A stretch of DNA of 64,000 nucleotides from a virus (Duplodnaviria; Caudoviricetes): positions 33,178 through 97,177 of IMG/VR virus record IMGVR_UViG_2675903060_000003; one strand, 5' to 3'. A model generated the notes under the pieces. That model made no database searches. It worked only from the letters and a program-made list of their open reading frames with translations, and had not been told where the DNA came from. This document shows, piece after piece, positions 1 through 53,602 of this stretch; the first letter of the stretch is position 1; every line of letters starts with the position of its first letter. A program made the translations under genes and the position numbers.

Positions 1-514
1 GTACGGCCATTAGCCCGCAGAAGGCGCACGGGTCGGCATCGGTGACCCTCGCCCAGCCGATCGCCTCGGGATCCTCATCCAGCGCCTCGATGATGGTGTC
101 CCGTCCAACGTCCGCCACGAGCTTCTGGGCTGCACCTTGCGCCTTCTTCTCGGCGGCGCCCAGCCGCTGCTCGATCGGTGGCGGGTTCTCGTCCTCGGGG
201 ATCCACAGGTCCTTCGTGGCCCACCGCAGCGATACTTCCGCCTTCCCGCCTGGGATCCCGGCCGGCGCGGGCACGAACACCCCGCGGGAGCGGGCAATGT
301 CCCGCTCCTCGGAGTAGTAGTCGGCGGCGAGCGTCCCCGACATGCGGGCAAACGCCTCCAGCAGTTCCTTCACCGCCTCGATCCACAGTGGGATCGTGGT
401 CGCGAACGCGCCGAGACGGATCAGATCCCACAGCGGGCCGAGTTGCTCGGCCAGACGGGCAGACAGGGCGCGCTGGGCGGCCTGATGCTCAGCGGCCCTC
501 GACTGCTGCGTCAT
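1..514 (-). CDS. Head maturation / MuF-like minor capsid protein (5' part; runs off the window)
   Basis: Manually translated MTQQSRAAEHQAAQRAL...TLAADYY...GWARVTDADPCAFCGLMAVR; GGAGG RBS; directly after portal; the WARV...CxFC motif is typical of this actinophage protein. Confidence 0.8.
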   Translation of the reverse strand, partial: MTQQSRAAEHQAAQRALSARLAEQLGPLWDLIRLGAFATTIPLWIEAVKELLEAFARMSGTLAADYYSEERDIARSRGVFVPAPAGIPGGKAEVSLRWATKDLWIPEDENPPPIEQRLGAAEKKAQGAAQKLVADVGRDTIIEALDEDPEAIGWARVTDADPCAFCGLMAV

Positions 515-1928
515 CCGCGGCCTCCGGCTCAGCCTCGCGTCCATGTGCCGCACGGCGGGCGGCGAGCTCGTTGCCGAGGTCAGTCAGCGCCTGCCGGCCC
601 TGTGCGCGCCGTCGGTCTGCGTGGACCCGGCGCCGCTGCCCCTCGGTCAGGCCGACCATCTCCAGCGTGACGTCCGAGTCCGCGGGAAGGATGCCCGCCG
701 CGACCAGCTTTGTCGCAGCGTCGGTCTGGCTGGCCATCGTCGGCGTGGCCGGGTTGCGCCACACCGTTTCGATGCGGCGGGACCGGTCAGGGAGGTCCCC
801 TGTCTGGATCAGGATCGCGAGGCGGAACACCTGGCTCCATGGCGTGTTGAACAGCGTCTGCTTGCGCTCGGCGCGCTTCACCAGTTGAGCTTCGGTCGAG
901 CGGATCGCGTCCGCCGACGCCGGATTGTCCGTGGTGTAGCCCAGGTAGTGCGGCGGCAGGCCAAGCTGGGTGGCCATGATCCGCGCGTACATGTCGATCA
1001 TCCGCGTGTACACGGACGGGTCGTAGGCGGCGAACTGGCCCACGGTCGGGACCTCGCCGTCCTCGTCCCGCTCCAGCGCCAGCACGCGGCCCAAATAAGC
1101 TTCCCAGGCGCTCTTGGCGTTGCCTTCGGCGTCCTGGAACGCCGACTCGGACGCGCCGAGGATGTACCGCTGGGGGGCGCCGTAGAACTCGCGGGCGACC
1201 TCCATCCCCATCAGGGTTCGGCAGGCAGCGTCCGTGATGGACATGACCGCGTTCGTGATCTCGGATCGTCCGATCCGGTCCGCCGTCCGCTGACGGTTCG
1301 AGATCCGCACCACCGGCGGCAGCCCGAGTCCGTGGTCGTCGCGGTCGATGACCTCCCAGCCGGAGTTCGTCGCCACCACGTGGATGGACGAGTTCGGCAG
1401 GTACAGCACCGCCGCATCCTGGTCTTCGATCTTGTACAGGCGCAGCCCGCTCGTGACGGCGCGGGCTCGGGCGTCGTAGAAGACCGTCATGTCCAGCGGC
1501 GACTCGATCGAGATCAGCGGCGGCATGTCGGCGTCCTCACTCGACCCGACCGCCGCATACGACCGGCCGTAGATCAGCGAATCGAGGTGCGCGAGCTGCG
1601 ACTCGGCGACCAGCTCATTCGCCTCCGCGATCTCTTCCAGCTCGGTGGAATCGTCTGGCGCGTCCTTGTACCGCCACGCTTCGACGTCGAGCCGCTGCTC
1701 CAGCGCGTCCACACCGATCTGAGGCCACCCAATGACGGTGTGCAAGCCCTTGAGCTGCGGCGGGATCGAAATCCCCAGGTCGCGGATGAGCTGCTCGCCG
1801 TTGTAGTAGCAATCCCGCAGCTCCAGGTCGAAACGGCGCGATATCAGTTCGCTCCGCAGCACGCCGAGCAGCGCCGCCTCGTCGTCCGTCAAGGTCAGCA
1901 GCCCCAGCTCGGGAATCGTGACGGTCAC
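489..1928 (-). CDS. Portal protein (SPP1 Gp6-like)
   Basis: YYNGEQ, VIGWPQIGVDALEQRL, GRSEIT, EFYGAPQRYILG, NPASADAIR, WRNPATPT motifs; GTG start overlaps the terminase stop. Confidence 0.95.
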   Translation of the reverse strand: MTVTIPELGLLTLTDDEAALLGVLRSELISRRFDLELRDCYYNGEQLIRDLGISIPPQLKGLHTVIGWPQIGVDALEQRLDVEAWRYKDAPDDSTELEEIAEANELVAESQLAHLDSLIYGRSYAAVGSSEDADMPPLISIESPLDMTVFYDARARAVTSGLRLYKIEDQDAAVLYLPNSSIHVVATNSGWEVIDRDDHGLGLPPVVRISNRQRTADRIGRSEITNAVMSITDAACRTLMGMEVAREFYGAPQRYILGASESAFQDAEGNAKSAWEAYLGRVLALERDEDGEVPTVGQFAAYDPSVYTRMIDMYARIMATQLGLPPHYLGYTTDNPASADAIRSTEAQLVKRAERKQTLFNTPWSQVFRLAILIQTGDLPDRSRRIETVWRNPATPTMASQTDAATKLVAAGILPADSDVTLEMVGLTEGQRRRVHADRRRAQGRQALTDLGNELAARRAAHGREAEPEAADDAAVEGR

Positions 1929-3583
1929 CGCAGCACCACCGCCCGCCCTTGTCCTCTGCGACCCAGACCCTTGGAGATGGCGTCGAGACGTGCCTGCCAC
2001 GCCAGCATGGCCGCGATGGCGGCGTCGATCTTCCGCCGTGATGTCGGATGCTCTTTTGCGATCGTCAGCCCCGACCTCGACGGCCGGCGGCGAGCGTTCA
2101 GCATGTGGCGGGTCAGCGCGAACGACCCGTCATGAGAGAGCTCGCCGTTCACGATCGCCGCGTGCAGCTGCTCCAACGCTCTGACGACCATGTTGGTGCG
2201 GTTCATCCACCACTCGATCGGGTGATTCTGCGACGACCGCACCCGCAGCCGCCGCCCGTACGTGTACTCCCAATCCGCGACGTACGACCGCCAGTCCGCG
2301 GCCGGGTCTGCGTAGAAGCCCACCACCCGGTAGCGCTGGAAAGCGGACCGGACTGCGGCCTCGACTTCCGGGATCGGCACCCACCAGTCGCGGCCTGCAG
2401 CGCCGTCCGGCTGCTCCCACACCGCGACCTCGAACAGGTGCCCGTCGCTGACGCGGCAGCCGATCAACGCCGTGGCGTCCGTCACCCCACGCTCGCGGTG
2501 CCGGGAACCGTCGAACCCGAGCGTGATCCGCTCCCCGTCCGCGACCACCTTGGAGGCGTCCACGCACGCTGCCCACTCCGGCTGAGACAGCCACGAGTCC
2601 GATGCGTGCGTGACCTGGTTGCCGTAGTACTGGCGCGACGATTCGGGCGTCGTGGCCGGGTCGTGAATCTCGGCGACGATCCGGTCCAGGTCCACCCAGC
2701 CGCGACGCTCGCACGGCGGCTCGTGGATGCGACACCCACCCGGCAGGTTCGCCGAGTCGCCGTAGGCGTAGGCCAGCCCGTTGTACAGCGACCCCGGATC
2801 CGACATGTCGGTCTCCGGCGGCCACTCCCGGTGGTCGTACAGCAGACCCTCATCCTTGGCTCTACCCTCCAGGATCTGCTGCAGGTACTGGGCGGACGCC
2901 TCGGCAACCGACTCCTCACCGGGCACGTAGGCGTTCGGAGCTTCGATCGATGAGCCGCCGGTCTTGCCCAGGTTCCGGCGCAGCGTCGCCGCGAGCCGCA
3001 CCCCGCCGTTGACCGGCATCCACGACTCGGTCTGGTCGAGACACACATGCACGGGCCGGTTGCCCTCACGGCTAGTCGCCGCGGCGGTCACGAACTCGAT
3101 CCGGCCCTTCGGCAAGGCGACGAACGTGTCCATCGGGTCGAGTCCCGGATAGGCGTCCATCACCGGGCCCTCGCGGAGCATCTCCAGCAGCGGCGCCCAC
3201 GCGTTCTTCGTCTGGTCCTCGCTGGTGGCCGCGATCTGCACCCACGGGGTGCGGATGTCCGACCATGGCCGGCCCACGGGCTGCCCGTCGGCGTCCCAGC
3301 CGTCCGGGACGACGGGCCCCATCCCCTCGGCGGCGCAGATGGCGCTCAGCAGCGGAGACTTTCCCGCGCCCTTCGGCCGGCTGTAGACGGCACGCCGGTA
3401 GCGCCGCTTACCCGTAACCGGGTTGATCTCGTAGAAGGCCAGGACGAACGCCGCCTGCTCCTTCGTCAGGATCAGCGGCTCGTACTCGCTCCGGTCAGGT
3501 GCCGCGAGATGGTCCTCAATCCACGCCAGGACCTCCCAGCCCAGCGTTGGCCGCTCTCCGGGGTACGACGGACGCCACGGCAA
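1925..3583 (-). CDS. Terminase large subunit
   Basis: Walker A RPKGAGKS, QIAATSEDQ, LGFDGS nuclease motif, C-terminal KIDAAIAA; TTG start after GGAGG. Confidence 0.95.
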   Translation of the reverse strand: MPWRPSYPGERPTLGWEVLAWIEDHLAAPDRSEYEPLILTKEQAAFVLAFYEINPVTGKRRYRRAVYSRPKGAGKSPLLSAICAAEGMGPVVPDGWDADGQPVGRPWSDIRTPWVQIAATSEDQTKNAWAPLLEMLREGPVMDAYPGLDPMDTFVALPKGRIEFVTAAATSREGNRPVHVCLDQTESWMPVNGGVRLAATLRRNLGKTGGSSIEAPNAYVPGEESVAEASAQYLQQILEGRAKDEGLLYDHREWPPETDMSDPGSLYNGLAYAYGDSANLPGGCRIHEPPCERRGWVDLDRIVAEIHDPATTPESSRQYYGNQVTHASDSWLSQPEWAACVDASKVVADGERITLGFDGSRHRERGVTDATALIGCRVSDGHLFEVAVWEQPDGAAGRDWWVPIPEVEAAVRSAFQRYRVVGFYADPAADWRSYVADWEYTYGRRLRVRSSQNHPIEWWMNRTNMVVRALEQLHAAIVNGELSHDGSFALTRHMLNARRRPSRSGLTIAKEHPTSRRKIDAAIAAMLAWQARLDAISKGLGRRGQGRAVVLR

Positions 3584-3596
3584 GGGAGAACCTCCC

Positions 3597-4061
3597 TCAC
3601 GCGTTCTCTGCGGCTCCATCGGGGCGGTTCACACCGGGCAGAACCCGCAGATCCCCGTAACGCTGGCGGGCCGTCTCCTGCACGGGTGGCCGCTTGGAGT
3701 CCTTCTCGTCGGCGTCGGCGAAGACGAGCCGGAGCCTTGCGCGATCTTCAGGGGTGGCGCCGAACTTGGCCACCCGTAGCCGAACCTCGGCCGCGAGCGT
3801 CCACTGCCCCTTGGACCACATGGCGTCGTGCATGAGCGCGGTGTCGAGCAGGAAGTACCAATCCGACTCGATCATCACTTCGGCTTGAGGCGACCGCTTC
3901 CACATCTCCCACCATGCGCGAGTGCGTGGATGCCAGTCGATCTCCTCAGGGAGATCAGGCGGCTCCGCCTTCTCGAAGCGCAGCACCGTCTGCGGAACAG
4001 GATCAGCATTCGTACGAGCCCGCCGATGCGCCGGCTTGGGTGCAGGGCCACGACCAGCCAC
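3597..4061 (-). CDS. Terminase small subunit
   Basis: MAGRGPAPKP...WHPRTRAWW...AEVRLRVAKFGATPEDRARLR; immediately upstream of TerL. Confidence 0.9.
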   Translation of the reverse strand: MAGRGPAPKPAHRRARTNADPVPQTVLRFEKAEPPDLPEEIDWHPRTRAWWEMWKRSPQAEVMIESDWYFLLDTALMHDAMWSKGQWTLAAEVRLRVAKFGATPEDRARLRLVFADADEKDSKRPPVQETARQRYGDLRVLPGVNRPDGAAENA

Positions 4062-7219: not shown

Positions 7220-7504
7220 ATGGGCATGCAGATCATCAAGCAGCCGTCCGGCCAGTTCGCCATCTTCGACTCCGTCACGGACACGGTCATCGTCTGGGAC
7301 GCAACCGAAGAGGAGGTCGTCGAGTACTTCGCCGAACGGGCCGCTGACCGCGCTCGCGAAGATGCCCGCCGCCAGGTCAGCCACGTCGCCGCAGGGAACC
7401 CGCGCAAGGCGTACTTCCAGTTCGCCATGACGTGGGATGAGGCGCTCACCAAGGATCGGAAGCATGGCGGCACAGCGTGGAAGGAGTGCCAGCAGCGTGG
7501 ATGA
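7220..7504 (+). CDS. Hypothetical protein (94 aa), opposite strand, probably leaderless
   Basis: MGMQIIKQPSGQFAIFDSVTDTVIVWDATEEEV; GATGAT -10-like box 6 nt before the ATG. Confidence 0.75.
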   Translation: MGMQIIKQPSGQFAIFDSVTDTVIVWDATEEEVVEYFAERAADRAREDARRQVSHVAAGNPRKAYFQFAMTWDEALTKDRKHGGTAWKECQQRG

Positions 7505-7521
7505 TCTCGCGAAGCGCCCGG

Positions 7522-7830
7522 CTATCTGATCCCGGGGTGCCGTTCCGGCGGCCTCCGCATCCGTCCTTGCTTGTCCGCCTTTGCCTTGCCGCCCTCGGAC
7601 GACGACTTGTAGACGTGGCACCGCTGGGCGGTCCGGAGCCCGTGGATGGGCCTCAGCACCTCTATGCGGTGGTCGGTGCGGTCGCCGAGGTGGTCCACGT
7701 CCGTCGCCCCCGGCTCCCCGCACACGTGGCAGGTGTCGCCGTACACGCGGAAGCACTCGGCGCGGATTTCTGGCCAGTCGGTCGGCAAGTCTGCCGAGCG
7801 GTCGTGGCCTGCCCACTGTGCGTTTGCCAT
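7522..7830 (-). CDS. HNH endonuclease (packaging-associated type)
   Basis: WPEIRAECF...CHVCGEPGATDVDH...CHVYKSSSEG. Confidence 0.85.
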   Translation of the reverse strand: MANAQWAGHDRSADLPTDWPEIRAECFRVYGDTCHVCGEPGATDVDHLGDRTDHRIEVLRPIHGLRTAQRCHVYKSSSEGGKAKADKQGRMRRPPERHPGIR

Positions 7831-8528
7831 CAGCCCACGCCCAAGCTTGCGGCGCGCTCCGAGATCAGTGCCCGGATCGCTGCCCCGTCCCCGGCTGCGT
7901 CCATGTACCGCTGGTAGAGGGCGACGGCCTGCTCGTACGCCGGTCCTGTCTTCGCCGCGGACTGGTGGTGCAGGGCGTACACGCGGCCTTCGTGGCGCAC
8001 GGGCTCTGCGCCGAGGAGCGTGCGGTGGCTGATCAGCCACGCCACGTCCTCCGGAGCCCAGCCGAGGAAGCGCTCGTCCTGCCCGCCGCACGCCCACCAC
8101 GTCTCCAGCGAGGTTACGTACACGCCCGAGGTGGCTGCGGGCACCACCAGATGGTTGCAGCGGTCAAGCGGCGCCCCGCGCCGGTATTGGGCTGTGCCGT
8201 CCGCTCTTAGCGACCGGTACTCGGTGTACGGCAGATGCACCCGCCCGCTGACGGCTGCGCCTTCGACCGCCGCCAGCAGCGGCTCCCTCTCGGGCAGCGT
8301 GTCCGCGTCGCCGAGCACCACCACGTCCGCGCCGGACTCCTCCGCCAGCCGGACGCCCCGGTTGCGGCAGGCGGCCAGACAGAACGGCTCATGCCCGGTG
8401 TCCACATCCACGATCTCGACGCCCGGCAGCAGCTCCCGGTAGCGGGCCACCGTCAACCGGTGGGCGAGCACACGGGACGGCTGAGGTCTCCACGGGATCA
8501 CGACCAGCACCCGAAGGTCAGTAGTCAT
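7830..8528 (-). CDS. Glycosyltransferase (GT-A fold, galactosyltransferase-like C-terminus)
   Basis: VVIPWR, AACRNRG, DAD motif, GGQDERFLGWAPED. Confidence 0.9.
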   Translation of the reverse strand: MTTDLRVLVVIPWRPQPSRVLAHRLTVARYRELLPGVEIVDVDTGHEPFCLAACRNRGVRLAEESGADVVVLGDADTLPEREPLLAAVEGAAVSGRVHLPYTEYRSLRADGTAQYRRGAPLDRCNHLVVPAATSGVYVTSLETWWACGGQDERFLGWAPEDVAWLISHRTLLGAEPVRHEGRVYALHHQSAAKTGPAYEQAVALYQRYMDAAGDGAAIRALISERAASLGVG

Positions 8529-9183
8529 GCCCTGCCCTTTCGTGCCCGATGTGCGTCACCAACGGCGTATCGTCACGGCGGCCCCAGTACGCGCCGCGCG
8601 CCTTCGGGTCGGTGAACAGTTCCCGGCCGAACCTCGACTCCGACCAGTCGCCCTCAGGCCACGGCCGGCGCAGCGTCGAAGCGGGGATGAGGGACGGGTT
8701 GCCGGTGAAGCAGGCCCGGTGCTCAATCCACGAGTAGGTGTCCTCCGTGCGCTGCTGGAAGAGGTTGCCCTGCGCCTCCAGCGCCTCGATCAACCCGCCG
8801 CGCTCGCGCTCGTTGTGGAACCACGGCTGGCGCACCAGGGCAACCTGTGTCAGGTACGGGTGGCCATCCAGCACTGTGGCGAGGTCGGCGGCGTCAAGCG
8901 GCTGGTTGAGGACGAAGTCCTCCTCCCAGAAGAACACCCAGCGGCAGCCTGCGGCGGCCTGCCAGACACGGCGCATCGCCCGCCAGTACCCGGCCCGGTC
9001 TTCGGCGACGGGGACGACCTCGGCCGTGAACTCGGCTTGCAGCCAGTCCCGGTAAGCAGCGTCTCCGGAGTCGTCCACAATCAGCGGCGACCCCACACCG
9101 GACAGGTTGGCGCGGATAGACGCGAGCGCCTGCGTGATGCAGTCCTTACGCCCGTTGCCGAGGACGATCAGTGGAACCGACAC
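8518..9183 (-). CDS. Glycosyltransferase (GT-A fold)
   Basis: IVDDSG, FFWEEDF (DxD-like), FTGNPSL, VTHIG. Confidence 0.85.
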   Translation of the reverse strand: MSVPLIVLGNGRKDCITQALASIRANLSGVGSPLIVDDSGDAAYRDWLQAEFTAEVVPVAEDRAGYWRAMRRVWQAAAGCRWVFFWEEDFVLNQPLDAADLATVLDGHPYLTQVALVRQPWFHNERERGGLIEALEAQGNLFQQRTEDTYSWIEHRACFTGNPSLIPASTLRRPWPEGDWSESRFGRELFTDPKARGAYWGRRDDTPLVTHIGHERAGHDY

Positions 9184-9222
9184 AGGCGACCGCCTCTCTC
9201 GCCATGCGAGGCGGCCGTCGCT

Positions 9223-9495
9223 CTATTCGTGCTGGTAGAACTCGTAGATGTGAGCGCCGTCGTCAGTGACCGAGCCTGTAGGCCGATAGTCCGCGACGGG
9301 CATGTGTGAATCCCAAGGGTCCGCATACTCGAATGTCGTCAGCGGCCTAGCCTCGGGCTGTCTCCACATGGGCGGAAGCTCGTGCCAGCGAAACCTCGTC
9401 CCGTCGTCGCCATTCGGTCCACGCAACTCGATCAGGAATGGCTTGTCTGCCCAATCCTCGCGATTGAACTTCGACAGGGCATTCACATCGTCCAT
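9223..9495 (-). CDS. Hypothetical protein inserted in the glycosylation cassette
   Basis: 90-aa ORF with lower GC than its neighbours; CATAAT box just upstream. Confidence 0.65.
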   Translation of the reverse strand: MDDVNALSKFNREDWADKPFLIELRGPNGDDGTRFRWHELPPMWRQPEARPLTTFEYADPWDSHMPVADYRPTGSVTDDGAHIYEFYQHE

Positions 9496-10375: not shown

Positions 10376-11050
10376 TCACACCCTTAAAGCGTCTGCGGGG
10401 ATACGGAGGGTGCCGTCGCCGTTGAAGCCCTGGCCGACGAACCGGCCTGGCGTGCGCGGTGTCGGGAAGTCGCGTTTGTCGTCGAACCCGTCCGGCTCGA
10501 ACTGGGGGCTCTCGGCGCTGGTGTGGACCATCAGCGACTGTCTCGCCAGCGGGTACACCTGGTGGGCCAGCCAAAGCTGGTCGGCCTGCCACCGTTCCAC
10601 GCCGGCGTGCTTCTCCGGCAGGAGCCGGGCCGCTGCCGCGGCGCCGTCCCGTCTGGCACCCCACATCCCAGCCAGGATCGGCATGCCGTGCTCCGGGTGG
10701 TCCCGCATGGCGTGGAACTGCCTGCCGGACGCCAGCCATTCCTTAACGGCGGCGCGCTCACGCTCGCACGGGCGGGAGTCCGCGTCGCGGAACAGCGTCA
10801 CCTCGTTGCCGTCCCGCAAGGCGTGGAACCGCCAGAACGTCGACCACCAGTCCTCCGAGGCCCCAACCATGCGGACGATCCCGGCGCCCTGCTGGGCGAG
10901 CTCGCCGACGACGTGGGACGGGATGGAGTCACCGACATAGAAGCGGCACACGAAGTCGGGGTAGAGCTCGGCGCACAGGCGGACGTTCTCCACCGCGCCC
11001 ACCCGGTACAGCTCGTCCGGGCCGAACAGGCTGAACGAGATGACCTTCAC
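10376..11050 (-). CDS. Putative glycosyltransferase / glycan-modifying protein
   Basis: MKVISFSLFG...FWRF...RDADSR...MRDHPEH...ILAGMWG...DQLWL; DxD motif. Confidence 0.75.
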   Translation of the reverse strand: MKVISFSLFGPDELYRVGAVENVRLCAELYPDFVCRFYVGDSIPSHVVGELAQQGAGIVRMVGASEDWWSTFWRFHALRDGNEVTLFRDADSRPCERERAAVKEWLASGRQFHAMRDHPEHGMPILAGMWGARRDGAAAAARLLPEKHAGVERWQADQLWLAHQVYPLARQSLMVHTSAESPQFEPDGFDDKRDFPTPRTPGRFVGQGFNGDGTLRIPADALRV

Positions 11051-41859: not shown

Positions 41860-41975
41860 ACCTATGTCTCATAATACGCACTCAGTACGTGTTAAGAGAG
41901 CCAGTTATGAGGACACGCAAAAGATGCGTGTTTTATCATCAGGTTGTGGTAACGCGCACATGAGACGCTGAAGGA
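41860..41975. promoter_or_regulatory. AT-richer divergent control region
   Basis: Between divergent genes; repeated CTCATAA/TTATGAG/CATGAG and ACGCA/TGCGT elements. Confidence 0.55.
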
Positions 41976-42212
41976 GTGGAGCCCGAGATGACCGCTGAAC
42001 TGGTAGAAGCCGCGACCGCCTACAACGAAGCGCCGAAGCGGCTGCGCGACGCGATCGTGAAGGCTGCCGAGACCAGCGACGCGACCGCCACGGAGATCGC
42101 CCAGGCGATCAACTTCACGTACTCCGTGGACTACGTGGCGAAGATCGTGCGCGAGGCCGGCGTTGCCCGCCCCCGCGGCCGGCGTCCTCGCGCGCCGCGC
42201 TCCGACTCCTGA
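41976..42212 (+). CDS. Small HTH regulator
   Basis: LRDAIVKAA...TATEIAQAINFTYSVDYVAKIVREAG; GGAG RBS, probable start at MTAEL. Confidence 0.8.
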   Translation: MEPEMTAELVEAATAYNEAPKRLRDAIVKAAETSDATATEIAQAINFTYSVDYVAKIVREAGVARPRGRRPRAPRSDS

Positions 42213-42313
42213 TCTGGTTTGGCGGGTACCGGAAGAGGTCATGACGCCTCCCCCGGCCTGCGTGGTCGCCATTCCTGGTGCCATCTGTGCCCGCCTCCTT
42301 TCGCGTGTTCCGA

Positions 42314-42346
42314 GGGCCGCCCGCCCTGTAGCGGGCGGCCCGTTTT
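42314..42346 (+). terminator. Intrinsic terminator-like hairpin
   Basis: GGGCCGCCCGC-cctgta-GCGGGCGGCCC followed by GTTTT. Confidence 0.7.
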
Positions 42347-42399
42347 CGTGTGGTGACCAGCTCAGGTGTCAGCTGAAGGCATGGTCATGAAGCTGGTCC

Positions 42400-42840
42400 G
42401 TCGCCAGTGGCGCGGAGAGCCCTGTGGCACGGCTCGGCATGTCGGCCGGTTCGGGTCGGGCCCGGATTGTCGGGTCGGCCTGGCGAGAACGTGTCGTGTC
42501 CGGGGCTGTCGGCCAGGAGCGGGTGGGCGTGGCATGTCGTCGAGGACTGTCGCCGGGTAGGCGAGGTGTGTCGGCGCGGAGCGGCTGGGCCGGCGTGGAC
42601 AAGTCGGCCGGGGGTAGCGCATGGGCCGGCGTGGGTAGTCGCGTTGCCGTGGGAAGGCTCGGCTCGTCGGCGTGGCGAGGGATGGAAGGGTCTGGCATGT
42701 CGGTGTGATTTGGCGGGAACGAGACGGGGCTGGGCTTGTCGGCGCGGCGGGAGTGTGAGCAAGGCGTGGAGTGTCGGCCTGGACGGGGCGGTGCTGGTTT
42801 GTCGCGCAGGGGTGGCTAGCCGTATCGGTCACGGCGTCGC
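42400..42840. repeat. Non-CRISPR array: 13 GTCG-delimited units of 28-41 bp, each built from (GGN-NN) pentamers; candidate guide-RNA array
   Basis: GTCG at 42400, 42441, 42469, 42508, 42536, 42570, 42603, 42638, 42666, 42699, 42738, 42773, 42801 and 42836; e.g. GTC GGC-GT GGC-GA GGG-AT GGA-AG GGT-CT GGC-AT GTC. Confidence 0.88.
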
Positions 42841-42855
42841 AGAAGAGGGCGTCCA

Positions 42856-43593
42856 TCAGATCCGCTCCCAGGCCAGCAGCTCGAACTTGCCGTCCGACCG
42901 GCCGCGGTCGGCGCCGACGCCGATGTCCTCGCCGCGCTCCCAGATGCGCCCCCAGGCTTGCGGGGTGAGGAAGTCGTCGTGGACCTTCAGCTCGAACTCC
43001 AGGACCGGCGACTGGACGTACTCGACGCGGTTGATCGACGAGCGGGGCCCCTGCGGGGTCATGACGTGCTTGATGCGCTCCTCAACGCCGGTGGGCTCCT
43101 TCACACCGAGCCCGATGTACACGTCGGGGACGAACACCCGCTCCGACAGGGTCGCCATCAGCCCCTTCCGGAAGCCCTTCGGCAGCGGCCGGCCCACGTC
43201 GCTTCCGGTGGCGGTCTTGCCGTCCCAGTCGACGCCGGGGTAGGCCGAGTTCGCCCACTCCTTCAGCGCCGCCTTCATGCACCGGCCCTCGTAGGCGAGC
43301 TCGCCCGTGTCGGGGACGCGTTTGAACCCGTTGATCGACGGGGCGGCGTCGGACTCCATGAGCGCGTCGGCGAGCTCGTCCGCGGACGGCTGACGGTCCG
43401 GGAACCGCTCCGTGAGGGTCTTCTGCACGAGCTCTTGCAGGTGCCGGTCGCCGATGTCCATGCGGGTCTTCAGCCAGCCCTTGATGACGGACGGCGACGA
43501 CGGAACCCCTCCCACGATCTTGTCGAGGATCTGCAGCCGGACCCGGTAGCAGGCCACGCTGGAGGAGGTGCCGAAGATGTCGACGGCGCCCAT
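42856..43593 (-). CDS. Stand-alone Cas7/RAMP-superfamily-like protein (245 aa)
   Basis: N-terminal strand YRVRLQILDKIVGG, AYEGRCMKAALKE helix, beta-hairpin EERIKHV...RSSINRVEYV, LEFELKV strand and C-terminal Gly-rich loop GVGADRGRSDGKFEL. Confidence 0.8.
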   Translation of the reverse strand: MGAVDIFGTSSSVACYRVRLQILDKIVGGVPSSPSVIKGWLKTRMDIGDRHLQELVQKTLTERFPDRQPSADELADALMESDAAPSINGFKRVPDTGELAYEGRCMKAALKEWANSAYPGVDWDGKTATGSDVGRPLPKGFRKGLMATLSERVFVPDVYIGLGVKEPTGVEERIKHVMTPQGPRSSINRVEYVQSPVLEFELKVHDDFLTPQAWGRIWERGEDIGVGADRGRSDGKFELLAWERI

Positions 43594-44003
43594 CAGCCGG
43601 CCGCCTTCCGGTCCGCGGGGACAGCGGTCAGGCTCGGGCGTGCGGTGGCCCGTTCCAGCGCCGCCTCGGCGTTCTTGCGCTTGTGCTTCTCCTCGTCGAC
43701 CTTCGCTTGGAGGCTGGCCACGTAGTCGGCGACGGACGGCGGCAGCTCGATCGGCTCGGCCAGTTCGGCGCGGGTCTGCCGCAGCGCCCGCTTGGCCTGC
43801 CCGTAGCGGACCACGACCGACTGGACCTGCGTCGCCCCTTCGAGGGCGCGGAACAGGTCGAACAGCTCGCGCGGCGTCTTGCCGTCGAGGGTTTGCCCGG
43901 TGATCGCCTCGATGTCTGCGCGGACGCCGGGGTCGTGCTGGATCAGCGCCACGACGGCGTCGAACTCGTCCGGGCTGTAGTCCTGGGGGTTGCGTGCTCT
44001 CAT
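43593..44003 (-). CDS. Helical / coiled-coil protein (136 aa), TGATG-coupled to the RAMP-like gene
   Basis: GAGG RBS; stop overlaps the RAMP start. Confidence 0.8.
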   Translation of the reverse strand: MRARNPQDYSPDEFDAVVALIQHDPGVRADIEAITGQTLDGKTPRELFDLFRALEGATQVQSVVVRYGQAKRALRQTRAELAEPIELPPSVADYVASLQAKVDEEKHKRKNAEAALERATARPSLTAVPADRKAAG

Positions 44004-46057: not shown

Positions 46058-46366
46058 TCACCGGTCACGCCCCCATTGCCGGTCCCATTCGGCGGTCAGC
46101 CGGTCGGCTTCGTCGCCGAGGGCGTCGCGGACGACGTGCTCCACCCGGAGCGGCGGGGCGAGTTCGCGGGTGTCGGCTGCCGGGTCGAGCACGTCGAGGC
46201 CGGCGTTCGGACGGCGGGCGGGCAGGCGGTTGAGGCGGTCCCTCAGCCACACCACTCCTACGGCGGCGAGGACCAGAGCCAGCAGCGCGATGACGAGCAG
46301 CAGGGTGCCGTTGGCGGCGTCGTTGAAGAACACCGCCAACGTCTCCAGCTTGTCGAGGGCGCCCAT
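46058..46366 (-). CDS. Single-TM membrane protein
   Basis: TLLLVIALLALVLAAVGVVWL. Confidence 0.7.
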   Translation of the reverse strand: MGALDKLETLAVFFNDAANGTLLLVIALLALVLAAVGVVWLRDRLNRLPARRPNAGLDVLDPAADTRELAPPLRVEHVVRDALGDEADRLTAEWDRQWGRDR

Positions 46367-46902
46367 CACGCGCCCCCGCCCGGCTTCCACTCGATGCCGA
46401 GCAGGGAGCGGATCTCGGCGGCGGCGTAGTCCTGGCGTGCCGCCCCCGCCCGGTTGCCGATCTCGCGGTAGGCGTCCTCGGCGTTGGCGAGTTCGCGGAG
46501 CCGGGTCTCGGCCTTGGCGCGGAGTGCGGAATCGTGCCCCGCCTCCACCTGCGGGGCGTCTCCCGCGAGGGCCAGGAACGCCTCCAGCTCGTGGACGGGA
46601 GTGCCGACGGCCTGTGCTGCCGCTATCTCCGCCCGGCAGCCTTTGGACTGCTCCCAGCCGGGAAGGACCACGACCGCGTCAGCGGACTGCACGATCCATG
46701 ACAGGACGTTGGCGAGAGCCGGGCGCAGGTCGTGCGGGTCGAAACCTGCGTCGGGGTTAGGCTCGGCCGGGCAGCGCACCTCGTAGCCGAGAGCACGCAG
46801 CCGTTCGGCAGCGGCAAGGAACGCCGGGAACCCCATGTCGAGGCGGCCTCGCATCGGGCCGGCGATGTAGACCGCACTGCCGGGGGTCATCGGCTCAGGC
46901 AT
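46366..46902 (-). CDS. DUF4406 / nucleoside deoxyribosyltransferase-like protein
   Basis: VYIAGPMRG...FPAF...DAVVVLPGWEQSKGCRAE. Confidence 0.88.
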   Translation of the reverse strand: MPEPMTPGSAVYIAGPMRGRLDMGFPAFLAAAERLRALGYEVRCPAEPNPDAGFDPHDLRPALANVLSWIVQSADAVVVLPGWEQSKGCRAEIAAAQAVGTPVHELEAFLALAGDAPQVEAGHDSALRAKAETRLRELANAEDAYREIGNRAGAARQDYAAAEIRSLLGIEWKPGGGA

Positions 46903-51623: not shown

Positions 51624-52529
51624 TCAGAAGTCGCCGTCAGCGACCTGGAGCACGGTCAGGCCCATCGCCCGCCACATCTCGACCACTTGCCGCCGGTCGT
51701 CCAGCACGCAGGACACGTCGTAGACGTCGCGAACATGGGCGTCGAACAGCTCGGCCTTGACGATGGAGTCCTTGCGGTGGTCGCCGGCCTCCCGCATGTG
51801 CAGGGCGTCGTAGGCGAGGCCGACATGCGCCGTCAGCCACTCCTCCGTCGCCGCCCGGCATGCGTCCGACCGGCCCGACATGAACACGACCCGGTTACCT
51901 GCCGCGTGAAGCGCGCGGATGACGGCGATGACCGGGAGGTTCGGCCGGTCATCGCCGACGCGCGTCTCATCGAACGGCGACCTGTCGCCCATCAGGGCGG
52001 CGGTCCCGTCGATGTCCACCAGCACGGCCTTCGGGGTGCCCGGCTTGGCCTTGTATGGCTTCACCGCGTTGTCGTCACCAGGCTCCTCCGGCAGCGGCAG
52101 GGGGTAGGGGCGGCCCTTCAGGTAGCGGGTGTGCATGCCACGGATGACGTCCCCGCCAACCGGTCGCTCGCGGGCAGCGTCGCGGGCGATGCACTCGTCC
52201 ACGGAACGGTGGGTCAGATCCCACACCTCGAAGTCGGCGCCGGCGCGGCGAGCGACCCTGGCCAGGTCCCGGACCGTGCGGTTCGGCAGGTTGGTGTCGT
52301 CGCACACCACGTCCACGCCCTTGCGCAGCAGCGCCGAAATGGCGGCGTCCCGCGCGGTGAGGATGCGCGGCTCTGTGACGCCCGCGATGTACACGCTGTC
52401 GTGGACCATGGCGCGCAGGTCGTCACGGTTGATGCGGGCCCGCTTCTCCGGGTCCTCGGCCACCCACGCCGACGCCATGCACGTCTTGCCGCACCCTGGT
52501 AGGCCACGAGTGATGTAGAGGGTGCTCAC
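51624..52529 (-). CDS. Polynucleotide kinase / 3'-phosphatase (T4 PseT-like)
   Basis: GLPGCGKT P-loop, RINRDDLR, DDTN; HAD domain DIDGT, SGR, DDR. Confidence 0.95.
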   Translation of the reverse strand: MSTLYITRGLPGCGKTCMASAWVAEDPEKRARINRDDLRAMVHDSVYIAGVTEPRILTARDAAISALLRKGVDVVCDDTNLPNRTVRDLARVARRAGADFEVWDLTHRSVDECIARDAARERPVGGDVIRGMHTRYLKGRPYPLPLPEEPGDDNAVKPYKAKPGTPKAVLVDIDGTAALMGDRSPFDETRVGDDRPNLPVIAVIRALHAAGNRVVFMSGRSDACRAATEEWLTAHVGLAYDALHMREAGDHRKDSIVKAELFDAHVRDVYDVSCVLDDRRQVVEMWRAMGLTVLQVADGDF

Positions 52530-53602
52530 GCGGCGTCCTCCGAGAACGTGACGGGCCGCATGTCGCCGGACGGGCGCAGCGTCCTCCAAATGGCCGGCCG
52601 CGGATCCTTGCCGTCGAGCAGGTTGAACAGCCATGGACGCAGCGTCGACTTGGCCGCTTCCAGGGCGTAGTCCTTGCGCGTCCACCCCTCCGGCAGTCGG
52701 CCGAGGATCTTGTCGTGGAACTGCTCGGTGTCGTACAGCAGGTCGTCGGCCTCCTGCGTCAGCCGTCCGGCGAGGTCCTTCACCCACTGGTGGAACTCGT
52801 CCGGAAGCGGCTCGCAGATGTCCGCGACGCTCTTGCCTGCGCCGAGCAGCTCCCACACGCCGCGCGCGTTCAGGCCGGTGATGACCTTGTGTAGTGCCAC
52901 GTAGTCGGCCTGCTTCAGCTTCACCATGTGGCCCGAGTCGAGCATCCGGACCACCAGCCCTTCCGCTCCAGGCCGGGGCGGCATCGCTAACGCCTCGCCC
53001 AGCGTGCGGACGCTGAACACCGTTGCCTGCGGCCCGTCCCAGCCCGAAACCCAGTCAGGCCCGACCACTGCGCCGGTCGCGATGTCCACCGCGCCGAGGA
53101 GGAACAGGTCGTCCGCGCCGCCGTAGTCGCACACGATCCGGTTCTCCGGATACACGACCTCGAACAGCACCGTCATGCCGGGCGGCGGCTCGAAGTCGCC
53201 GTACCGGGCCCTGAAGACAGCCGTGGCGTGCGCCGCCTGCATCGAAGTGAACGAACCGCGCGTCGCCACCGCATACCCGGCAGACGTGGGGTGGAGGATC
53301 CCCAACGAGCCGTCCATCTTGTCGATGACCTCGGCCGGCGCCGACAGGTCGAGGTCGCCCGCGAGCGGGTCGCCGTAGTTGAAGAACTTCGCGAACGGCC
53401 TCGCCACAATGGCGCCCTGCTCGTCCACGATCAAGCCACGACACGTCCTGGTCACCACGTCCCAGACGCCCTCGTACTGCGTCTTCTCGGTGTAGTTATA
53501 GATCTCCAGAGGCTCGGTGGGGTGCTCCTGGACGCGGACGTAACCGGCCTCGATGCACTTCTCCAGATACTCCAGGTCGAACAGGTCCCAGATGTGCGTC
53601 AC
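52526..53602 (-). CDS. RNA ligase (T4 Rnl1 family)
   Basis: CRGLI, RPFAKFFN, motif I KMDGSLG, ATRGSF, LFE, EGLVV, KLK. Confidence 0.93.
   Translation of the reverse strand: MTHIWDLFDLEYLEKCIEAGYVRVQEHPTEPLEIYNYTEKTQYEGVWDVVTRTCRGLIVDEQGAIVARPFAKFFNYGDPLAGDLDLSAPAEVIDKMDGSLGILHPTSAGYAVATRGSFTSMQAAHATAVFRARYGDFEPPPGMTVLFEVVYPENRIVCDYGGADDLFLLGAVDIATGAVVGPDWVSGWDGPQATVFSVRTLGEALAMPPRPGAEGLVVRMLDSGHMVKLKQADYVALHKVITGLNARGVWELLGAGKSVADICEPLPDEFHQWVKDLAGRLTQEADDLLYDTEQFHDKILGRLPEGWTRKDYALEAAKSTLRPWLFNLLDGKDPRPAIWRTLRPSGDMRPVTFSEDAA

What the first reader, a model, noticed from the sequence alone, without database searches (positions are those of the whole stretch)
42856..43593. Orphan Cas7/RAMP-like protein in a phage early operon
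Seen: the motif order is a beta-1 strand ending in GG (YRVRLQILDKIVGG), a helix matching the RAMP 'IPGSSLKGALR' position (YEGRCMKAALKE), a thumb-like hairpin (EERIKHVMTPQGPRSSINRVEYV), a strand (LEFELKV) and a terminal Gly-rich loop (GEDIGVGADRGRSDGKFELL). Established: this layout characterises Cas7-group RAMPs. It sits between whiB/dam and the replication genes, so it would be expressed early in infection or induction. An alternative reading is a Cas7-mimic anti-CRISPR.
Basis: partly seen in the sequence, partly recalled or inferred. Interest (0 to 1): 0.8.

Follow-up and report, generated by a model that had tools for sequence, protein, structure and literature searches.

The report
Divergent phage VIPR guide-RNA system
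The "orphan Cas7-like" gene is real, but it is the protein half of a VIPR system, a phage RNA-guided DNA-silencing system first described in 2026. Its own five-base-repeat guide array lies directly downstream, written on the opposite strand from the characterised examples.

Summary
The 245-aa ORF at 42856-43593 (-) is a real gene. It folds with high confidence (pLDDT 90) into a single-RRM RAMP. The best solved-structure matches are Csm3, Cmr4 and Cas7-11 (Z 11-13).

It is not an orphan. The non-coding stretch after its stop codon (about 42415-42813) is an array of GAC-started units of 28-39 nt, built from NN+SCC five-base steps. The same kind of C-rich array abuts the homologous gene in 39 of 53 distinct viral contigs, in three related prophages and in phage Mae-JY09.

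This architecture matches VIPR systems (Vipr RAMP + vrRNA pentamer guides + accessory gene; bioRxiv 10.64898/2026.04.26.720920 and .720927). A profile-profile comparison links the window's family to the phage SUSP1 Vipr family (92% probability, E 5e-7). The same comparison with Csm3 gives 1.8%.

Three things differ from the characterised type II:
- The G-rich (GGS/NN) reading lies on the strand opposite the gene.
- The residues that read the two guanines in SUSP1 are not conserved.
- The accessory gene is unrelated to vap1 and lies upstream.

The anti-CRISPR reading is not supported. Other agents of this scan found the same clade in other phage DNA. Verdict: an unannotated, divergent member of a newly known kind. 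Which strand carries the guides is unresolved.

The parts
42856..43593 (-). vipr-like gene: a 245-aa single-RRM RAMP protein (P0001)
   Evidence: ORF with GC3 0.96. AF2 pLDDT 90.4. Foldseek top hits are Csm3, type VII Cas7 and Cmr4, E 1.5e-7. VIA Z 12.8, 11.7 and 11.4. hhalign to the SUSP1 Vipr family: probability 92.4%, E 5.2e-7, 137 columns.
43593..44003 (-). Upstream accessory gene (136 aa, all-helical), translationally coupled to vipr by a one-base overlap. A candidate vap-like partner.
   Evidence: Adjacent locus tags in relatives, 52 clusters. AF2 pLDDT 74.7, four helices. No fold match. Not related to SUSP1 vap1, nor to the 170-190-aa partner that precedes distant family members.
42814..42842 (-). 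Conserved junction element between the vipr stop codon and the array. It contains a 5-bp hairpin (GCCGT / ACGGC, 42819-42835) followed by an invariant GCTAGCC.
   Evidence: Conserved in the window and in three related prophages. Predicted as a hairpin in the RNA fold. There is no covariation to test, because the stem is invariant.
42415..42813 (-). Pentamer-repeat array, the candidate vrRNA array. It holds about 13 units of 28-39 nt. On the gene strand each reads GAC-NN-(SCC-NN)k-SCC. On the + strand the same units read (GGS-NN)k ... GTC.
   Evidence: Non-coding: GC3 is flat at 0.73/0.68/0.71 and period-3 power is 0.1, against 27.5 in the gene. C 0.43, G 0.28. There are 19 CGAC sites against 5.6 expected. 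Seven CGACNNSCC matches and 10 four-pentamer matches fall here, against about 0.3 expected from the window-wide rate.
42314..42341 (.). An 11-bp GC hairpin that closes the far end of the array. On the + strand it is followed by a T-run, so it reads as the terminator of the convergent 78-aa gene.

Best explanation
This is a VIPR (Viral Interference Programmable Repeat) system of a prophage. It has three parts: a Vipr-type RAMP protein (42856-43593), an accessory gene upstream (43593-44003), and a guide array downstream (about 42415-42813).

By analogy with the characterised SUSP1 system, one protein protomer binds each five-base repeat of the array RNA. It sequesters the fixed triplet and exposes the two variable bases. 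The filament then recognises double-stranded DNA through a gapped code (two bases read, one skipped) and represses transcription, most likely in competing phages or satellites.

Shown here:
- the RAMP fold
- profile-level homology to the Vipr family
- the pentamer array and its linkage to the gene across many phages

Inferred only: RNP formation, DNA targeting and the biological targets.

My preferred sub-reading (about 60%) is that the guides in this clade are transcribed from the gene strand. They would then be C-anchored (SCC/NN, each unit opened by GAC), not G-anchored as in all characterised VIPR systems.
For: Fold. All top PDB matches are Cas7-group RAMPs. A BFVD hit is a viral 'RAMP superfamily protein'.

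Homology. hhalign of the 64-sequence family alignment against a 28-sequence SUSP1-type Vipr alignment gives probability 92.4%, E 5.2e-7, over 137 columns from helix-1 to beta4. Against Csm3 it gives 1.8%.

Array grammar. The array is local, strongly enriched and non-coding. CGAC-to-CGAC spacings taken are congruent to 3 mod 5 in 48 of 106 cases, against 21 expected (my hand tally).

Linkage. In 39 of 53 distinct IMG/VR loci the strongest C-over-G skew window of the whole roughly 12-kb locus lies within 800 nt of the gene. Matches to a marker-plus-pentamer pattern cluster next to the gene, mostly on its strand, and none occur in 12 Csm3 control loci.

Literature. VIPR is defined as vipr + vap + flanking pentamer vrRNAs, is mostly proviral or viral, binds one protomer per repeat and follows a 1-nt skip rule. 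Non-canonical repeats have been reported.

For the sense, C-type reading:
- In many loci the array fills the gap between the partner gene and vipr right up to the ribosome-binding site.
- In L022 strong sigma-70-like promoters lie on the gene strand before the cassette and after the array, and none lies on the other strand.
- SUSP1 residues D177, W178 and R138, which read the guanines, align to Ala, a variable residue and a non-conserved residue here. R179 aligns to the invariant R230.
Against: - No expression, binding or targeting data exist for this clade.
- A direct HMM search of the SUSP1 genome with the family profile found nothing. The profile did not reach the SUSP1 Vipr chain in the PDB sequence copy at E up to 10. 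The link rests on a single profile-profile comparison.
- Units carry only 5-7 variable dinucleotides (10-14 bases of specificity), fewer than the 9-16 repeats of type II.
- Two guide patterns tried in this genome gave 0 hits, and 3 hits against 1 in the control. That is chance level.
- The gene-strand reading is the exact reverse complement of a relaxed GGY/NN, with GCC the commonest triplet. This fits canonical G-type guides encoded antisense.
- In SUSP1 and in a Streptomyces relative the G-rich repeats lie on the gene strand.
Confidence: 0.8

Rival explanations
1. It is the same VIPR system, but the guides are canonical G-anchored vrRNAs (GGS/NN, each unit closed by GTC). They would be transcribed from the + strand, antisense to and converging on the vipr gene. 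The conserved junction hairpin would then act as a 3' tail.
For: All repeat types in the discovery paper are G-anchored: YNNGG, NNNGG, YNNNG and NNNNG. On the + strand the semi-fixed base sits third, as in GGY, and is C or T in 18 of 29 clean triplets (read). Canonical vrRNAs carry a conserved structured 3' tail, and the conserved hairpin lies at the 3' end in this orientation. GGY-type pattern matches in the window's locus fall on the + strand.
Against: A strong + strand terminator stands just before the array, and no + strand promoter-like site lies between it and the array. In at least 17 loci the array abuts the vipr ribosome-binding site, so an antisense promoter would have to sit inside the coding sequence. 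L022 shows no antisense promoter-like site. In relatives such as L027 the triplet is mostly CCC, which gives a purine at the position that the SUSP1 pocket restricts to pyrimidines. The guanine-reading residues are not conserved.
Confidence: 0.35
2. It is an anti-CRISPR. A Cas7 look-alike enters the host's type I or type III effector complex as a faulty subunit, as the viral Cas5 and Cas8b homologues AcrIB3 and AcrIB4 do.
For: Viral orphan cas homologues can act as anti-CRISPRs (10.1101/2023.06.24.545427). Three related lysogens carry type I-E Cas7, two carry Cas1 and one carries type III RAMPs.
Against: There is no sequence similarity to any Cas7 beyond the Gly-rich loop. This host has no detectable Cas1, RAMP or I-E Cas7 in a 100%-complete assembly. 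The family is old and large and is tied to its own array, which a decoy subunit would not need. Its nearest profile relative is Vipr.
Confidence: 0.04
3. The C-rich tract is not a guide array. It would be a cis element, such as a Rho-loading or antitermination region, or replication iterons next to the replication module. The RAMP would merely bind it as a regulator.
For: The tract is C-rich, G-poor and unstructured (z -0.22), like a rut site. It lies between the early operon and the replication genes. In L027 it follows the repressor/cro-like pair.
Against: Neither role explains the five-base phasing, the GAC punctuation or the hypervariable dinucleotides. The homology to Vipr and the identical architecture of characterised systems give a simpler account.
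Confidence: 0.05

Closest known systems
Type II VIPR of Escherichia phage SUSP1 (Vipr + vap1 + GGY/NN vrRNAs; bioRxiv 10.64898/2026.04.26.720920, .720927, 10.64898/2026.10.15.759431)
   Same: A phage-borne minimal locus. A lone single-RRM RAMP with a G-loop. One small accessory gene. Long flanking non-coding arrays with a five-base repeat made of a fixed triplet and two variable bases. Profile-level homology of the proteins. The invariant G-loop arginine (R179 in SUSP1, R230 here).
   Different: The G-rich reading is on the opposite strand from the gene here, but on the gene strand in SUSP1. Units are short (5-7 repeats), directly abutting and marked by GAC/GTC, rather than roughly 100-nt vrRNAs of 9-16 repeats each with a structured tail. 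The guanine-reading residues D177, W178 and R138 are not conserved. The protein is 50 aa longer, with a helical insert between beta1 and helix-1. The accessory gene lies upstream and is unrelated to vap1.
Non-canonical VIPR arrays (NNNGG, YNNNG, NNNNG; staggered arrays; GAC/NN, CAC/NN, WGT/NN, TGH/NN)
   Same: Five-base period, other fixed triplets and abutting units. The discovery paper says types differ in array architecture and in vap genes.
   Different: I found no text describing an SCC/NN (C-anchored) repeat or arrays antisense to vipr. The figures and tables that would show whether this clade is one of the seven types are not available to me.
Type III CRISPR backbone subunits Csm3 / Cmr4 (Cas7 group)
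   Same: Best solved-structure matches: Z 11-13, with 148-155 aligned residues. RRM core plus a Gly-rich loop of the form G-x-G-x-x-R-S-x-G-x-G-x-F.
   Different: No profile similarity outside the loop (probability 1.8%). No conserved catalytic Asp. No cas neighbours and no CRISPR array. The repeat period is five bases, not six.
Type IV-B Csf complex and haloarchaeal HRAMP (CRISPR-derived RAMP modules without arrays)
   Same: A Cas7-like filament working outside a standard CRISPR locus (7jhy Z 10.3; PMC7937560; PMC8730458).
   Different: Those modules keep Cas5 and Cas11 or nucleases, and they bind heterogeneous RNA. Here the RNA is encoded in cis with a defined repeat code.

Membership tests
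VIPR system | Stand-alone RAMP homologue (single RRM, G-loop, thumb) outside any CRISPR-Cas locus | tested here: met
   RAMP fold. No cas genes in the genome. The G-loop is conserved. The thumb was not verified in 3D.
VIPR system | Protein belongs to the Vipr lineage and not to Cas5/6/7 | tested here: met
   hhalign against the SUSP1-type Vipr alignment: probability 92.4%, E 5.2e-7, 137 columns. Against Csm3: 1.8%. Caveat: plain HMM searches did not connect the families, and no phylogeny was made.
VIPR system | Flanking non-coding tandem repeats of five bases, each a fixed triplet plus a hypervariable dinucleotide | tested here: met
   for the window. for relatives. The 5n+3 spacing was tallied by hand.
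VIPR system | Repeat consensus GGY/NN (or another G-anchored variant) on the strand of the vipr gene | tested here: not met
   The gene strand reads NN-SCC, and GGS-NN is on the opposite strand. In SUSP1 and a Streptomyces relative the G-rich repeats are on the gene strand. This separates the clade from type II, but not from VIPR as a whole, which admits 'related consensus' repeats.
VIPR system | Small accessory (vap) gene in the same operon | tested here: inconclusive
   A coupled 136-aa helical gene is present. It has no similarity to vap1 and no identifiable DNA-binding fold.
VIPR system | Mainly viral or proviral location | tested here: met
   Terminase, portal, SSB, primase-helicase and anti-repressor genes in the window. 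61 IMG/VR loci. Atlas clusters are 88-100% viral. Sporadic in host genomes: 4 of 150 in the same family.
VIPR system | vrRNA expressed and bound by the protein; DNA recognised by the 1-nt skip code | not testable with these tools
   Two guide patterns tried in the own genome were at chance level. With 12 specified bases there is no statistical power.
Cas7 (Csm3/Cmr4) of type III CRISPR-Cas | Sequence or profile membership (Pfam RAMPs PF03787, TIGR02582) | tested here: not met
   No Pfam hit for the protein. Only 1 of 64 relatives gives a weak PF03787 hit. hhalign to Csm3 aligns 20 columns of the G-loop only.
Cas7 (Csm3/Cmr4) of type III CRISPR-Cas | Catalytic Asp in the loop after beta1 | tested here: not met
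   The family consensus is GG-x-P-x-D-P, but the window protein and its close relatives have Ser at that place. The position is not among the invariant or near-invariant columns.
Cas7 (Csm3/Cmr4) of type III CRISPR-Cas | Encoded with cas10, cas5 and cas11 and a CRISPR array | tested here: not met
   None in the window or the genome.
Viral cas-homologue anti-CRISPR (AcrIB3 type) | Recognisable sequence identity to the cognate host Cas subunit | tested here: not met
   AcrIB3 shares 38% identity with Cas5.

The most novel reading that the evidence does not exclude
This large, mostly actinobacterial-phage clade of Vipr proteins reads a different fixed triplet: pyrimidine-anchored SCC, with GAC opening each unit, on the sense strand. 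Its guides would be many short, abutting units of 5-7 repeats. That would show that the VIPR code is not tied to guanine recognition. It would also supply a second, orthogonal protein-RNA pair for programmable gapped DNA recognition.
Probability: 0.45. Interest if true: 0.7.

Novelty: new variant of a known kind. Interest (0 to 1): 0.5.

Why it matters
VIPR systems were reported only in 2026. They were presented as an RNA-guided DNA-recognition mechanism older than CRISPR, and only the G-anchored type II has been characterised.

The window's clade is large: 678 clusters at 50% identity. It is unannotated everywhere ('hypothetical protein', with no Pfam or PHROG family). Its repeat polarity is inverted and its base-reading residues are altered.

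If the guides are the C-rich sense RNAs, the clade widens the known code and gives a second orthogonal scaffold. If they are antisense G-rich RNAs, it shows a new locus logic, with guide arrays converging on their own effector gene.

Either way, these loci can now be annotated in Streptosporangiaceae prophages. Their guides could also be mined for targets, to map conflicts between phages.

Tried and rejected
- Pfam, PHROGs and PDB sequence searches of the protein gave nothing.
- Rfam on the region found no family.
- A global Fourier test found no phase-coherent 5-nt period. The explanation is that each unit shifts the phase by three bases, so I tested spacing and local patterns instead.
- The 164-aa Pro-rich ORF over the array (42362-42856) was rejected as coding. 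GC3 is flat, there is no period-3 signal, and the equivalent tract in L027 is open in all three frames.
- The partner protein as a Cas11-like small subunit: no fold match.
- A common origin of the window's partner with the partner of distant loci, or with vap1: not detected.
- Before finding the VIPR papers I considered a Rho-loading site, a replication origin, a packaging site, a type III toxin-antitoxin-like array and a decoy for ribonuclease toxins. None explains the pentamer code.
- Several literature searches on Cas7-like phage proteins missed VIPR. The lead came from the scan's own notes, and I then checked it in the papers and on the SUSP1 record.
- The search for related loci with the full alignment failed because no stretch was conserved enough.
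- The script machine was lost, so later counts were made by hand from tool output.

Full report
**1. The gene**

On the minus strand, 42856-43593 encodes a 245-aa protein (P0001). Its ATG shares one base with the stop codon of an upstream 136-aa ORF at 43593-44003. Third-position GC is 0.96 and the period-3 signal is strong, so the gene is real.

Pfam, PHROGs and PDB sequence searches give nothing. The family is nonetheless large:
- 379 clusters at 90% identity, and 678 at 50%.
- All are named 'hypothetical' where named at all.
- Members occur in Nonomuraea, Streptosporangium, Microbispora and many metagenomes, plus one cultured phage, Mae-JY09, at 34% identity.
- Atlas clusters are 88-100% viral.
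- The gene occurs once in this 10-Mb genome, and in 4 of 150 other genomes of the same family.

**2. The fold**

I built a 64-sequence alignment (A1). With it, AlphaFold2 gives pLDDT 90.4 and pTM 0.85.

The structural matches are all RAMPs:
- Foldseek's best PDB matches are Csm3, type VII Cas7, Cmr4 and Cas7-11 (E 1.5e-7; 155 hits below 1e-3).
- The independent VIA scan gives Csm3 at Z 12.8, Cas7-11 at 11.7, Cmr4 at 11.7 and Csm3 6ae2 at Z 11.4 (rmsd 3.0 over 148 residues). RAMPs fill the list down to Cas6 at Z about 6.

At sequence level only the Gly-rich loop resembles Cas proteins. A profile comparison with two genuine actinobacterial Csm3 proteins aligns 20 columns at 1.8% probability. The Asp that follows GG in most relatives is Ser in the window protein, so a Csm3-type active site is not conserved.

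**3. The setting**

The window is a prophage or phage region transcribed leftwards:
- portal and large terminase at 489-3619
- anti-repressors
- an RNA ligase
- Dam, WhiB, the 136-aa gene and the RAMP gene
- a replication block of resolvase-like nuclease, initiator, primase-helicase and SSB

**4. The array**

The roughly 500 nt after the stop codon are non-coding. GC3 is flat and period-3 power is 0.1, against 27.5 in the gene. The tract is C-rich on the gene strand (C 0.43, G 0.28). It ends at an 11-bp GC hairpin at 42314-42341.

CGAC occurs 19 times against 5.6 expected, mostly 28-39 nt apart. Read on the gene strand, each unit is GAC-NN-(SCC-NN)k-SCC. That is five-base steps of a fixed triplet and two free bases, plus one closing triplet.

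Among clean triplets I counted GCC 14, CCC 7, TCC 4 and ACC 4 (read).

Local enrichment is strong. Seven CGACNNSCC matches and ten four-pentamer matches fall inside the tract. The window-wide rate predicts about 0.3.

Over seven loci, CGAC spacings are congruent to 3 mod 5 in 48 of 106 cases and to 4 mod 5 in 30. About 21 are expected per class (hand tally).

As RNA the tract has no more structure than shuffles (z -0.22). No Rfam family matches.

**5. Linkage of gene and array**

The same kind of tract follows the homologue in three related prophages and in Mae-JY09. In a metagenome contig it precedes the homologue.

A 12-sequence sub-alignment recovered 61 IMG/VR loci. In 39 of 53 distinct loci, the strongest C-over-G skew window of the whole locus lies within 800 nt of the gene. 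The islands are discrete, 0.4-2 kb long, and directly upstream or downstream.

A marker-plus-pentamer pattern clusters beside the gene. It falls on the gene strand in all but a few loci (L042 upstream, L068, L035), and is absent from 12 Csm3 control loci.

In many loci the order is partner gene, array, RAMP gene, with the array running up to the ribosome-binding site.

**6. What it is**

My own literature searches missed the relevant work. The scan's earlier notes pointed to VIPR systems, and I then checked the papers.

The discovery preprint describes the following:
- a stand-alone ancestral RAMP (Vipr) and a small accessory gene (vap)
- flanking arrays of YNNGG repeats (vrRNAs)
- a mostly proviral or viral distribution
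- a gapped code in which only the NN bases pair with DNA and every third target base is skipped
- repression of competing phages
- seven types with varied arrays (staggered, or ribozyme-separated) and repeat variants (NNNGG, YNNNG, NNNNG)

The structural preprint shows one protomer per repeat. It names the residues that read G1 (H17, D177), G2 (R138, W178) and Y3 (E71, M72, R179, C173, T175). A later preprint adds non-canonical triplets such as GAC/NN and CAC/NN.

I then tested the link directly. In the SUSP1 record, the GGY/NN repeats and the two genes lie together at 27.6-29.2 kb, all on one strand.

The family profile does not find SUSP1 Vipr by a plain HMM search. Against the single SUSP1 sequence, hhalign aligns 58 C-terminal columns (E 0.002). 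Against a 28-sequence alignment of SUSP1-type Vipr homologues, it gives 92.4% probability, E 5.2e-7 and 137 columns from helix-1 to beta4.

The window's protein is therefore a distant Vipr, not a Cas7 proper.

**7. How this clade differs**

(a) Polarity. The G-rich reading (GGS/NN) is on the strand opposite the gene. In SUSP1 and in a Streptomyces Vipr locus it is on the gene strand.

(b) Base-reading residues. SUSP1's D177, W178 and R138 align to Ala, a variable residue and a non-conserved residue here. R179 aligns to the invariant R230.

(c) Unit structure. Units are short and abut one another, marked by GAC/GTC. A single conserved hairpin element lies between the gene and the array.

(d) Accessory gene. 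It lies upstream and is unrelated to vap1. It is also unrelated to the 170-190-aa partner of distant family members. Its model is helical and has no fold match.

**8. Which strand carries the guides**

For the gene strand (C-type):
- Arrays sit inside the partner-to-vipr transcription unit in many loci.
- A + strand terminator stands just before the window's array, with no promoter-like site after it.
- L022 has strong promoters only on the gene strand.
- The guanine-reading residues have changed.
- Relatives such as L027 have CCC triplets, which would place a purine in the pyrimidine pocket if read from the other strand.

For the opposite strand (G-type):
- The tract is the exact mirror of a relaxed GGY/NN.
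- Every repeat type in the discovery paper is G-anchored.
- The conserved hairpin would then be a 3' tail.

I put this at about 60:40 for the gene strand. Only strand-specific RNA data can settle it.

**9. Rivals**

The anti-CRISPR reading lacks support. There is no similarity to a host Cas7, and this genome has no detectable cas1, type III RAMP or I-E cas7. Three related lysogens do carry type I-E.

A purely cis-acting role (Rho loading or iterons) does not explain the code.

Two guide patterns searched in this genome were at chance level. With 12 specified bases that test has no power.

**10. Verdict**

The object is an unannotated, divergent VIPR system.

The kind has been known since 2026, and other agents of this scan noted the same clade on other phage DNA. 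The inverted repeat polarity and the possible C-anchored code are what is worth following up.

Noticed in passing
window 41910-42341 (+): A 78-aa + strand ORF (41976-42212) has a promoter-like site (41910-41939) and a strong terminator (42314-42341). It converges on the array and is the only + strand gene in this stretch. It has no Pfam or PHROG family. Read-through of its terminator would give G-rich array RNA.
   Followed up: partly
L001 (Microcystis phage Mae-JY09, PP395641.1) 7462-9264: A cultured 'Microcystis' phage carries an unannotated member of this system: a 179-aa partner gene, a 248-aa gene and a roughly 400-nt array, at the very end of the linear record. The region is about 70% GC, which is odd for a Microcystis phage.
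   Followed up: partly
L042 2029-2481 (-) and 3946-4340 (+); L054 and L065: Some viral loci carry arrays on both sides of the gene. In L042 the two arrays are in opposite orientation, so C-rich transcripts would diverge from the gene and G-rich transcripts would converge on it.
   Followed up: no
L010 about 10530-10590: Inside the array of a related prophage, one pentamer (GCCAA) is repeated about ten times in a row. This suggests slippage as a way in which such arrays grow.
   Followed up: no
whole genome G000, compared with G009, G090 and G143: This lysogen shows no Cas1, type III RAMP or I-E Cas7. All three related lysogens that carry the same prophage module have I-E Cas7.
   Followed up: partly
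window 52526-53602 (-) and 46366-46902 (-): The prophage also encodes a T4 Rnl1-like RNA ligase (phrog_562, E 7e-71) and a DUF4406 / nucleoside deoxyribosyltransferase-like protein. Both may relate to RNA repair and nucleotide modification.
   Followed up: no
L022 3214-3251: In a 49%-GC viral contig, a perfect 13-bp hairpin lies between the vipr stop codon and the array. This is the same position as the conserved 5-bp hairpin of the window's clade.
   Followed up: no
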